Assembly (NCBI GenBank): GCA_038087875.1
Contig: CM075987.1
Span: 21,826,001 to 21,890,000, forward strand
Direction: 5' to 3'
From: Malacoraja senta
Taxonomy: Eukaryota
Length of the DNA: 64,000 bases
Both the position numbers and the translations under genes were made by a program. Positions 54,296-55,740 of the stretch are shown here, one piece after another. Under the pieces are notes generated by a model that saw nothing but the letters and a program-made list of their open reading frames with translations, was not told where the DNA came from and searched no databases. Positions within the stretch are counted from its first letter, which is position 1. Every line of letters starts with the position of its first letter.

Positions 54296-54461
54296 GAGAG
54301 GATCTTTGAATGTAAAATGTGTGGGAAAACCTTCAAGCGATCGTCCACACTGTCCACCCACCTGCTGATTCACTCCGACACCCGGCCTTATCCCTGTCAG
54401 TATTGCGGAAAACGATTCCACCAGAAGTCAGACATGAAGAAGCACACTTATATTCACACAG
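54296..54461 (+). CDS. GFI1B: GFI1B gene exon 6 (ZF3-ZF4)
   Basis: Poly-T acceptor ttttacag|, 166 nt, [55 protein letters not shown](G), donor CAG|gtacgg. Confidence 0.97.
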
Positions 54462-55740
54462 GTACGGTGAAACGAGTGTACATTCACTCACTCAGGTAGA
54501 GCACACCTGCACTCACACAGGTACAGTGCCTGTGTTCTCACACACATAGTCAGGAATATCACTGTATTCACATTGGTATGGAGAACCACATCTACATTGA
54601 TCCAGATACAATGGGAAACGCCTACATTTACACAGGTATACATAAATATTTAGGCAGGTGCAGTGGAAAATACCTTGTGGACACAGTAATACATCAATCC
54701 TATCGCAGGCAATAATGATCAAACTGAGATTCATTCACATTCATCTTCATGCAGGTACTTGGGTGGACAGGTACACATGTATGTGCAGGAAGGAACTACA
54801 GATGCTGACTAACACCGACGTCAAGGCACAAAAATGCTGGAGTAACTCCACGGGTCAGGCAGCATCTCTGGAGACAAGGAATAGGGGACGTTTCGGGTCG
54901 AGACCCTCCTTCAGACCCGAAACATCACCTATTCCTTTTCTCCAGAGATGCTGCTTGATCCACTGAGTTACTCCAGTGTTTTTTGTCTATATTCGAGGTT
55001 CACATGTATGTTCACCCACAAACAAATCACACTCACATGAGCACAGTGGAGCATGCCTTTGTTCACACAGTAAGATGGTTACAATCACACAGGTATGAAA
55101 CACTCTTATATTCACACAAGGGTGGTGGAATTCATCTATATTCAAGCTGAACCACGTTACCTTCACTACGTTTATGAAATTATGAAGGGGAATGCCACTT
55201 TTCATATAGGTGCAGTGATTTTGACACAAGGACACTCCCACATCCATACAGTTAGAAGGAAGACACAAAATGCTGGAGTAACTCAGCGGGACAGACAGCA
55301 TCACTGGTGAGAAGGAATGGGTGACATTTTGGGTCGAGACCCTTCTTCAGACTGAGAGTCGAGGTAGAGGGAAACTAGAGATATGGAAGGGTAAGGTGTG
55401 AAAGTGACTGATCAAAGCAGACGATGCTTAAAGGAAAAGTAGAATGGTTCATTGTTGGCTGAGGGGAAGGTGACAACGAAGCATACAAACAGTAAAATGA
55501 ATCAGGAGGACATTGAATCTAGTCGGAGAATTAGGGTGGGGGAGGGATGGGGAGAGAGAGAGAGGGAATGCAAGGGTTACGAAGTTATAGAAATCAATAT
55601 TCATAAACTCAGGTACAGTGGATCATTGACATTTACGGAGACATAAAGTTGAAAATGTCGTTGCCACAGGAACACATCTATACCCACCCAGTAACAGAAC
55701 TACATTCACACGATGACAGTGGGACACACATACATTCTCA
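54443..55740 (+). repeat. Degenerate tandem array resembling the GFI1B exon-6 end and donor, interrupted by PLE insertions (about 54783-54990 and 55255-55600)
   Basis: Repeated variants of cacacttatattcacacaggtac, for example 54502-54526, 54618-54640 and 55101-55120. Confidence 0.75.

What the first reader, a model, noticed from the sequence alone, without database searches (positions are those of the whole stretch)
54443..55740. Exon-end echo: the exon 6 terminus and its splice donor are tandemly reiterated into the intron
Seen: the last about 20 exon nt plus donor (cacacttatattcacacag|gtacggtg) recur as decayed units of roughly 25-35 nt for about 1.3 kb, giving CAG|GT sites at 54495, 54520, 54635, 54657, 54754, 54770, 55092 and 55612. 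Using the first alternative donor (54495) adds 34 nt and, joined to exon 7, reads ...[17 protein letters not shown]. That stop lies in the last exon (NMD-escaping) and removes ZF5-6; intron read-through gives the same peptide. Established: human GFI1B truncations that remove ZF5 (for example Q287*) are dominant-negative. Inference: splice-junction-seeded tandem amplification creates decoy U1 sites and potentially a natural dominant-negative isoform. It may be a general, little-described mode of intron growth in this lineage.
Basis: partly seen in the sequence, partly recalled or inferred. Interest (0 to 1): 0.7.

Follow-up and report, generated by a model that had tools for sequence, protein, structure and literature searches.

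The report
Exon-end minisatellite in GFI1B intron
The end of a zinc-finger exon of the blood-cell regulator gene GFI1B, together with its splice signal, has been copied head-to-tail into the following intron and has since decayed; this oddity is already known from a few human genes, but here the sister gene GFI1 shows it too at the same spot.

Summary
From 54439 to 55721 (+) the last ~23 nt of GFI1B exon 6 plus the donor recur as 11 decayed intronic copies (>=19/31 identity). None of 2000 dinucleotide shuffles reaches that count. It is the only echo seed in the 64 kb that is not low-complexity, and the array has no other copy in the 1.94 Gb genome. All eight listed CAG|GT sites and the ...[14 protein letters not shown] reading are correct. 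TRF misses the array, and two transposon insertions fill about 540 nt of it.

It is a minisatellite whose first unit spans the exon-intron boundary. This kind is described for human F7, IFI6, CBS, LMNB2 and PDGFA (PMC1557585), so "little-described" is overstated.

New here: the GFI1-like paralog has a younger array at the homologous junction, built from its own exon end.

The decoys lack the +5 G of the true donor, the array decays like neutral DNA, and no annotated relative shows such an isoform.

Verdict: real, a new member of a known kind, probably a silent by-product. The paralog recurrence is unexplained.

The parts
54296..54461 (+). GFI1B exon 6 (ZF3 and ZF4). Its last ~23 nt (54439-54461) form the exonic part of the repeat unit.
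   Evidence: Acceptor ttacag| and translation [11 protein letters not shown]...KKHTYIHT(G). 100% identity to annotated Gfi-1b of skates, rays and sharks.
54462..54467 (+). Authentic 5' splice site GTACGG (CAG|GTACGG). It carries a CpG and the +5 G that most copies have lost.
   Evidence: The canonical join to 57827 gives ...[14 protein letters not shown].
54462..54789 (+). Array block 1: about 12 decayed units of 16-46 nt, with CAG|GT pseudo-donors ending at 54495, 54520, 54635, 54657, 54754 and 54770.
54497..54499 (+). In-frame TAG that ends the read-through peptide ...[14 protein letters not shown]. It is included in every transcript that would use a donor beyond 54495.
54790..54990 (.). Hairpin-shaped insertion of the abundant interspersed element (two inverted arms, 54830-54899 and 54914-54983, 86% complementary). 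It interrupts the array.
   Evidence: I1, D1; 26 matches of the family's core in the window. The boundaries are approximate.
54991..55254 (+). Array block 2. It includes the best copy, 55097-55144 (25/31 to the seed; 20/23 of the exon part; 35/48 across the junction), and the pseudo-donor at 55092.
55255..55592 (+). Full-length copy of a ~330-nt SINE-like interspersed element inserted into the array.
   Evidence: 5796 first-look candidates; the 39 other scored copies are 84-88% identical over nearly the whole length.
55593..55721 (+). Array block 3: the last recognisable units, with the pseudo-donor at 55612.
57827..58008 (+). GFI1B exon 7 coding part (ZF5, ZF6, stop TAG 58006-58008).

Best explanation
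This is a minisatellite born from a tandem duplication that spanned the exon 6 / intron 6 boundary of GFI1B. The duplicated segment was the last ~23 exon nt, the donor GTACGG, and some 10-35 intron nt.

The 5'-most copy stayed as the real exon end and donor, held in place by selection on the zinc-finger coding sequence. The downstream copies became intron. They multiplied by slippage or unequal exchange and then decayed as neutral DNA through CpG loss, indels and two transposon insertions.

The array now makes up about 750 of the 3365 intron nt.

The pseudo-donors are most likely silent or nearly so. The upstream authentic site is the one used, as in human F7. The truncated ...[14 protein letters not shown] product is a possible mis-splicing product, not a designed isoform.

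Shown: the array, its register with the exon end, its locus specificity, the direction exon to intron, its decay, and the same structure in the paralog.
Inferred: the mutational mechanism, and the silence of the pseudo-donors.
For: - Clustering and strand bias of copies: 12 of 13 + strand hits fall in 1.3 kb, with 1 hit on the - strand.
- 0 of 2000 shuffles reach the observed counts.
- It is the only echo seed in the window that is not low-complexity.
- The array has no second genomic copy. A 17-mer of the unit gives 37 hits genome-wide at <=1 mismatch, and this locus is the only one with two.
- The copies include both exon and intron sequence: D2 is 35/48 across the junction.
- At the donor CpG, 9 of 11 copies read CA or TG.
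- Per-column conservation shows no special retention of GT: 7 of 11 for each of G+1 and T+2, near the overall mean.
- A transposon copy lies inside the array.
- Pseudo-donors lack +5 G in 7 of the 8 CAG|GT sites.
- The GFI1-like paralog has a TRF-detectable array that starts 17 nt inside its exon: period 98 with 95% matches, period 31 with 4.5 copies. All 28 of 28 diagnostic positions in its 7 copies match its own exon.
- Precedent: minisatellites whose first monomer spans an exon-intron boundary occur in F7, IFI6, CBS, LMNB2 and PDGFA. In F7, LMNB2 and PDGFA only the authentic upstream donor is used (PMC1557585, abstract and introduction passages).
- No annotated vertebrate Gfi protein among the 120 best clusters carries an extension after HTG.
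Against: - No RNA data could be examined, so silence of the pseudo-donors is inferred.
- In IFI6 and CBS the first two pseudo-sites are used (PMC1557585 introduction), so the sites 34 and 59 nt downstream could be used here.
- By crude measures the authentic donor is itself weak: 7/9 consensus matches, and a U1 duplex energy no better than the decoys'. The energy measure therefore does not separate it from the decoys.
- Pure chance does not explain why both ancient paralogs carry an array at the same junction. That hints at a local cause, either sequence propensity or selection, which this explanation leaves open.
- The finding that the exon copy is the most consensus-like (mean 20.4/31 against 14.7-18.6) is biased, because copies were picked by likeness to it.
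Confidence: 0.7

Rival explanations
1. First reader's reading. The reiterated donors are used as alternative 5' splice sites (or cause intron retention), producing a natural truncated GFI1B that keeps the SNAG domain and ZF1-4, lacks ZF5-6, and acts as a dominant-negative regulator.
For: - Every alternative donor, and read-through too, gives the same ORF end ...[14 protein letters not shown]. For 54495 the stop lies in the last exon, and for 54520 it lies 21 nt before the last junction, so both should escape NMD by the usual rule.
- Human ZF5-removing alleles are called dominant-negative (PMC6601108 abstract).
- The human donor mutation c.814+1G>C at this same junction gives a truncated protein and a platelet disorder (PMC5368270 passage).
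- IFI6 and CBS use their first two pseudo-sites.
Against: - No transcript evidence exists.
- No annotated isoform of this kind was found in the 120 best Gfi clusters.
- The decoys lack +5 G.
- The array shows neutral decay and transposon insertions.
- In the paralog the first decoy would instead give an in-frame 12-aa insertion, so the two arrays share no common protein outcome.
- The human counterpart of the product is disease-causing, so substantial use should be selected against.
Confidence: 0.07
2. The array is kept, or repeatedly regenerated, because it helps splicing of a weak authentic donor. The repeated U1-like and CA-rich units would act as an intronic enhancer, or as a landing pad that commits the upstream site. 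This would explain its presence in both paralogs.
For: - Both paralogs share the same non-consensus donor CAG|GTACGG, 7/9 consensus matches.
- Both carry arrays at that junction.
- In the young paralog array, the two copies that keep the ACGG/ATGG context have A at +1, while the GTAGCA-type copies keep GT. This fits selection against strong competitors while units are retained.
Against: - The GFI1B array is decayed, interrupted by transposons, and shows no preferential conservation of the CAGGT core.
- 0 of 112 read-through ORF tails from other, unnamed taxa carry an in-frame echo of the exon end. The junction therefore works without an array elsewhere.
- The competitor pattern rests on very few sites and was not tested statistically.
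Confidence: 0.13
3. The exon end is a protected master copy. Because selection freezes the first unit, unequal exchange or slippage can re-seed intronic copies again and again. The junction array is then a long-lived, self-renewing feature in this lineage, which explains one old array (GFI1B) and one young array (GFI1).
For: - Arrays of different age sit at the homologous junction.
- The paralog copies match their own present-day exon at 28/28 diagnostic sites.
- The GFI1B copies are mixed at those sites (25 own state, 14 paralog state, 5 neither), as expected for older copies of an exon whose silent sites have since changed.
Against: - The evidence cannot be told apart from two independent accidents plus a locally slippage-prone sequence.
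- No cross-species data exist. The search for relatives of the paralog's read-through peptide found none.
Confidence: 0.1

Closest known systems
Human F7 intron 7 37-bp VNTR (Borensztajn et al. 2006, PMC1557585; abstract and passages read)
   Same: The first monomer spans the exon-intron boundary, so the donor is reiterated in the intron. The authentic 5'-most site is the one used.
   Different: - F7 echoes only 4 exon nt; here about 23 are echoed.
- F7 units are identical and polymorphic (5-9 copies). The GFI1B array is old, with 60-80% identity and indels, is interrupted by transposons, and its polymorphism is unknown.
- Donor use here is untested.
Human IFI6 (6-16) intron 2 and CBS intron 13 junction minisatellites (as summarised in the introduction of PMC1557585; original papers not read)
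   Same: Junction-spanning minisatellites with many pseudo-donors. [quoted passage not shown]
   Different: Their units are near-identical. Here the nearest decoys (34 and 59 nt downstream) have lost +5 G and would cause a frameshift and truncation.
Human LMNB2 and PDGFA intron repeats that reiterate the exon/intron junction (cited in PMC1557585; original papers not read)
   Same: [quoted passage not shown] This resembles the GFI1-like paralog, where the array and its decayed copies fill roughly half of a 630-nt intron.
   Different: Units are longer there (81-100 bp), and the genes are unrelated.
Human GFI1B c.814+1G>C (Gly272fs*274) and Q287* alleles (PMC5368270 passage; PMC6601108 abstract)
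   Same: Loss of the authentic donor at the homologous junction, or truncation in ZF5, yields a protein without ZF5. That is the same class of product as ...[14 protein letters not shown].
   Different: Those are pathogenic germline mutations, not natural isoforms. Nothing here shows that the skate-like gene makes such a product.

Membership tests
Junction-spanning intronic minisatellite (F7 IVS7 type) | Head-to-tail repeats of a 10-100 nt unit | tested here: met
   GFI1B: 11 same-strand copies >=19/31 within 1.3 kb, spacing 22-60 nt in block 1. TRF is negative because of decay. Paralog: TRF is positive, with periods 31 and 98.
Junction-spanning intronic minisatellite (F7 IVS7 type) | First monomer includes the last exon bases and the 5' splice site | tested here: met
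   The seed with the most downstream echoes starts at 54433-54443, inside exon 6. Copy 55097 matches 20/23 exon nt. The paralog array starts at L002:1635, 17 nt before the exon end.
Junction-spanning intronic minisatellite (F7 IVS7 type) | Donor consensus reiterated in the intron | tested here: met
   8 further CAG|GT sites in 54495-55612. 7 of the 8 lack +5 G.
Junction-spanning intronic minisatellite (F7 IVS7 type) | Copy-number polymorphism (VNTR) | not testable with these tools
Junction-spanning intronic minisatellite (F7 IVS7 type) | Authentic 5'-most donor used; pseudo-sites silent or minor | not testable with these tools
   No RNA reads could be laid. The only indirect evidence is that annotated Gfi proteins of relatives show the canonical join.
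Natural dominant-negative GFI1B isoform | Transcripts that use an alternative donor or retain the intron | not testable with these tools
One search listed no run on record as RNA.
Natural dominant-negative GFI1B isoform | ORF keeps the N-terminus and ZF1-4, lacks ZF5-6, and its stop escapes NMD | tested here: met
   In silico only. The tail is ...[14 protein letters not shown]. The stop ends +4 nt after the junction (54495) or 21 nt before it (54520). For the six farther donors it lies 136-1113 nt upstream, which predicts NMD.
Natural dominant-negative GFI1B isoform | Such isoforms annotated in related species | tested here: not met
   Of the junction motifs found in the 120 best clusters, 119 are followed by GEKPHKC. 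The 3 exceptions lie in a crayfish low-quality model and an unnamed tandem model. Only cluster representatives were seen.
Generic CA-rich low complexity | Similarity reproduced by composition-preserving shuffles | tested here: not met
   0 of 2000 dinucleotide shuffles reach the observed counts at any threshold from 17 to 21.
Genome-wide satellite or transposon-internal repeat | Other copies elsewhere in the genome | tested here: not met
   The 339-nt block 1 matches only itself. By contrast, the inserted block 55255-55592 has thousands of relatives.

The most novel reading that the evidence does not exclude
In this cartilaginous-fish lineage, the conserved exon end ...CAC-ACN-TNN-ATN-CAC-ACA-G|GTACGG of both GFI ohnologs acts as a selection-protected master copy. 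It repeatedly re-seeds a junction minisatellite, so that a quarter to a half of the intron between ZF4 and ZF5 is built from exon-end copies. The arrays may persist because the reiterated U1-like units assist, or tune, a weak GTACGG donor, with occasional leakage to a ZF5-less product.
Probability: 0.15. Interest if true: 0.6.

Novelty: new member of a known kind. Interest (0 to 1): 0.35.

Why it matters
As a single locus this is another example of a known curiosity and changes little.

Two points give it some value.

1. It shows what such a junction minisatellite looks like long after its birth. It is TRF-invisible, CpG-decayed and split by transposons, yet still in register with the exon. 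Many more old cases could therefore hide in introns, and exon-end copies can contribute measurably to intron length.

2. Two ancient paralogs carry independent arrays at the homologous junction. This is a natural replicate. It asks whether junction minisatellites arise at sequence-determined hot spots or are retained for splicing, and a minigene experiment plus comparison of a few skate and ray genomes would answer it.

The medical analogy (ZF5-less GFI1B is dominant-negative in humans) makes any leakage from the decoy donors biologically meaningful. That leakage is unproven.

Tried and rejected
1. RNA evidence. The look-up of sequencing runs listed 6 runs. No listed holder is on record as RNA. 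Four small-share runs (0.07-0.10 of words) are only guessed to be RNA. No statement on expression or donor use can be made.

2. TRF on the GFI1B region found no array. The array is too decayed, so an ungapped seed scan and a wrap-around alignment were used instead.

3. The 17-mer hit at G000:C2:112509769, identical to the exon end plus donor, has no zinc-finger exon and no echo. It is a chance match.

4. A genome-wide pattern of three CAGGTA at 15-35 nt spacing gave 3609 matches against 2854 for the reversed control. It is dominated by unrelated minisatellites. Three inspected loci (L017, L039, L046) showed no upstream exon. The scan says nothing about generality.

5. Echo scan of 30 kinase-domain loci: 0 show an echo at the coding match end that is not low-complexity. 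This is a weak test, since many matches are long or intronless exons.

6. Cross-species check through ORF proteins. 0 of 112 read-through tails after KKHT(F/Y)IHT carry an in-frame echo motif (78 of the tails are >=12 aa). The taxa are unnamed and none is a close relative, so this only shows that the echo is not universal. The paralog's read-through peptide has no relatives at E<=0.001 among 86 candidates.

7. Rfam on 52000-59000 gave no family at gathering score.

8. A third GFI paralog was sought. Only two loci reach 87-100% identity; all others are <=53% generic zinc-finger genes.

9. Literature. The searches returned no paper on a GFI1 or GFI1B junction repeat. This covers only the held library.

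10. Remnants of whole duplicated zinc-finger units (84 nt) were considered and rejected. Copies share at most ~29 exon nt and continue into intron sequence (D2).

Full report
**What is there**

The window's + strand carries the 3' part of a GFI1B gene.
- Exon 5 carries ZF2, seen at 52440-52502.
- Exon 6 is 54296-54461 and encodes ZF3 and ZF4.
- Exon 7 starts at 57827 and encodes ZF5, ZF6 and the stop at 58006-58008.
- The exon 6 peptide is 100% identical to annotated Gfi-1b of several skates, rays and sharks.
- Exon 6 ends ...AAGAAGCACACTTATATTCACACAG and is followed by GTACGGTG.
- Joining 54461 to 57827 gives ...[20 protein letters not shown]..., the canonical ZF4-ZF5 linker.

**Checking the observation**

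Nine of the window's 90 + strand CAGGT lie in the 1.3 kb.

Tandem Repeats Finder sees nothing there, even at minimum score 30. By that criterion it is not a tandem repeat.

An ungapped scan with the 31-nt seed 54439-54469 (23 exon nt plus 8 intron nt) tells a different story.
- There are 13 + strand hits of at least 19/31 in 64 kb.
- Twelve of them (the seed and 11 copies) lie between 54439 and 55721.
- One lies elsewhere, and the whole - strand gives one.
- The best copies are 54498 (24/31) and 55097 (25/31).

The copy at 55097 matches 20 of the 23 exon bases. It continues into the intron part, with 35/48 identity over 54439-54486 (family D2).

**Controls**

I removed the two inserted elements and shuffled the remaining 758 nt 2000 times, preserving dinucleotides.
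- The mean was 0.084 hits >=19/31, against 11 observed.
- No shuffle reached the observed count at any threshold from 17 to 21.
- None scored >=24.

In a self-comparison of the whole window, only five places have eight or more downstream echoes. Four are CT-, AT-, T- or GA-rich tracts. The fifth is 54433-54443, the exon end.

The array is not a genomic repeat family.
- Block 1 (339 nt) matches only itself in the 1.94 Gb assembly.
- A 17-mer of the unit occurs 37 times genome-wide at <=1 mismatch.
- This locus is the only one with two hits.

**Anatomy**

A wrap-around alignment parses block 1 into about a dozen units of 16-46 nt, with many indels. The first four CACAGGTA-type cores are spaced 59, 55 and 60 nt apart, which suggests a two-unit higher order (D4).

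Two insertions split the array.
- 54790-54990 is a hairpin made of two inverted arms of a very abundant interspersed element. The arms are 86% complementary, and the family's core has 26 matches in the window.
- 55255-55592 is a full-length ~330-nt copy of a related SINE-like family. It has 5796 first-look candidates, and the 39 other scored copies are 84-88% identical.

Array units lie on both sides of each insertion, so the array is older than the insertions. Array-derived sequence is about 750 nt of the 3365-nt intron.

**Direction**

The exon end encodes the invariant KKHT(Y/F)IHTG of the family, so it cannot be a recent copy of an intronic repeat.

The donor's CpG (GTACGG) reads CA in 6 and TG in 3 of the 11 intronic copies. 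These are the two products of methyl-CpG decay, and they point to GTACGG as the ancestral state of the unit. The same change removes the +5 G.

The exon copy is also the most similar to all the others: mean 20.4/31, against 14.7-18.6 for the rest. That comparison is biased, because the copies were chosen by likeness to it.

Using 54495 adds 34 nt and yields ...[14 protein letters not shown], with the stop completed by the first bases of exon 7.
- Read-through, and every farther donor, meets the TAG at 54497-54499 and gives the same peptide.
- For 54495 the stop lies in the last exon.
- For 54520 the stop lies 21 nt before the last junction.
- For the six farther sites it lies 136-1113 nt upstream, which by the usual rule predicts NMD.

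Human ZF5-removing GFI1B alleles are described as dominant-negative (abstract of PMC6601108). A review passage describes c.814+1G>C, a mutation of the donor at this same junction. It gives Gly272fs*274 with loss of ZF5 and a platelet disorder (PMC5368270).

**What could not be shown**

Use of any decoy could not be tested.

Indirect evidence leans against a designed isoform.
- 7 of the 8 decoys lack +5 G.
- The CAGGT core is no better conserved among copies than the other columns.
- Transposons were tolerated inside the array.
- Among the 120 best annotated relatives, 119 junction motifs are followed by GEKPHKC. The three exceptions are in a crayfish low-quality model and an unnamed tandem model.

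**An unexpected addition**

The only other GFI-family locus in this genome has the same structure at the homologous junction, but young. It is G000:C16 (locus L002), with 87% protein identity over the exon.
- Its exon ends ...CACACCTTCATCCACACAG|GTACGG at L002:1651.
- TRF reports an array at 1635-1816 that begins 17 nt inside the exon. It has period 98 (1.9 copies, 95% matches), made of three ~31-36-nt sub-units (period 31, 4.5 copies).
- Seven intronic copies match the paralog's own exon end at 16-19 of 23 positions.
- At the four positions where the two genes' exon ends differ, these copies carry the paralog's state in 28 of 28 cases. This array was therefore seeded from its own exon, not inherited from GFI1B.
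- The GFI1B copies at those positions are mixed (25 own, 14 paralog state, 5 neither), as expected for old copies.
- The paralog intron is only 630 nt. Recognisable exon-end copies reach to about 1965, roughly half of it.
- Its first decoy (1687) would add 36 nt in frame.

Other junctions show no echo: GFI1B exon 5, and the paralog's upstream exon and surroundings in L015.

**What it is**

This is a minisatellite whose first monomer spans an exon-intron boundary.

The kind is in print. The introduction of Borensztajn et al. 2006 (PMC1557585; abstract and passages read) lists five human cases.
- F7 intron 7: 37 bp, 5-9 copies, only the upstream donor used.
- IFI6: 25 pseudo-sites, the first two used.
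- CBS intron 13: 15-20 repeats, two pseudo-sites used.
- LMNB2: 100-bp units covering most of an intron, only the authentic donor used.
- PDGFA intron 4.

Their experiments support a 5'-to-3' choice of the first site, even when the downstream sites are identical.

That is a lead, not independent evidence.

**Mechanism**

The steps are inferred.
1. A slippage or unequal-exchange duplication of about 35-60 nt spans the junction.
2. The upstream copy remains the exon end and donor.
3. The downstream copies are spliced out with the intron, so the frameshift they would cause is not expressed.
4. The array expands as minisatellites do.
5. Without selection the copies decay.

I put 0.7 on this reading, with largely silent decoys.

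**What stays unexplained**

Why do both ohnologs, separated since early vertebrate history, carry independent arrays at the same junction?

Chance placement is very unlikely, given how few such arrays were seen in about 75 kb.

The candidates, all untested, are:
- a locally duplication-prone sequence (both share ...CACACAG|GTACGG);
- a protected master copy that keeps re-seeding the intron;
- retention because the units help a weak donor.

The echo is not universal at this junction. 0 of 112 read-through ORF tails from other, unnamed taxa show it in frame. None of those taxa is a close relative, and a search with the paralog's read-through peptide found nothing.

**Generality in this lineage**

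This was not established.
- A pattern scan was swamped by unrelated minisatellites.
- 0 of 30 kinase loci showed a junction echo, which is a weak test.
- A better sample could not be fetched.

**Verdict**

Novelty: a new member of a known kind, with an interesting paralog recurrence. Interest 0.35.

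Noticed in passing
L002:1635-1990 (G000:C16, GFI1-like paralog): There is a young exon-end minisatellite at the homologous ZF4/ZF5 junction. The 630-nt intron is a multiple of 3. In the exon's frame it has only one stop (L002:2098-2100) before it rejoins exon 7 in frame.
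   Followed up: yes
window, 26 sites, e.g. 54835-54866, 55271-55302, 58139-58170; also L002:2740-2830 and L017: A very abundant interspersed element has a core like TGCTGGAGTAACTCAGCGGGTCAGGCAGCATC. It often occurs as inverted pairs forming ~170-nt hairpins, about one per 2.5 kb of this window. A ~330-nt form has thousands of genomic copies at 84-88% identity. One copy lies just after the GFI1B stop codon, in the presumed 3' UTR.
   Followed up: partly
L002:1-144 = L015:7811-8027: A 28-nt minisatellite (4.5 copies, 94% matches; also a 56-nt period) lies in the paralog's intron upstream of the ZF3-4 exon. It is not related to an exon end.
   Followed up: no
window 49740-51098 (+): Two long open frames (278 and 173 aa) sit back to back. 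They look like the 3' part of a LINE-type retrotransposon ORF in the GFI1B intron region. They were not searched against families.
   Followed up: no
G000:C1:3366474-3366921, C1:5917013-5917306, C1:10137248-10139769: Large minisatellites of 17-, 37- and ~21-nt units contain CAGGTA. The genome is rich in such arrays: 3609 triple-CAGGTA matches against 2854 for the reversed control. No adjoining exon was seen in the two looked at.
   Followed up: partly
window 52788-53570 (-) and 53010-53514: GC-rich stretch with long open frames on both strands and a C16 run at 53089-53104, lying in the intron after exon 5. It may be a CpG-island-like segment. It was not examined.
   Followed up: no
P0002, unnamed metaclust protein: A 406-aa GFI-like model repeats the ZF3-ZF4 block in tandem ([26 protein letters not shown]...). 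This may be a duplicated exon or an assembly or model artefact in another organism.
   Followed up: no
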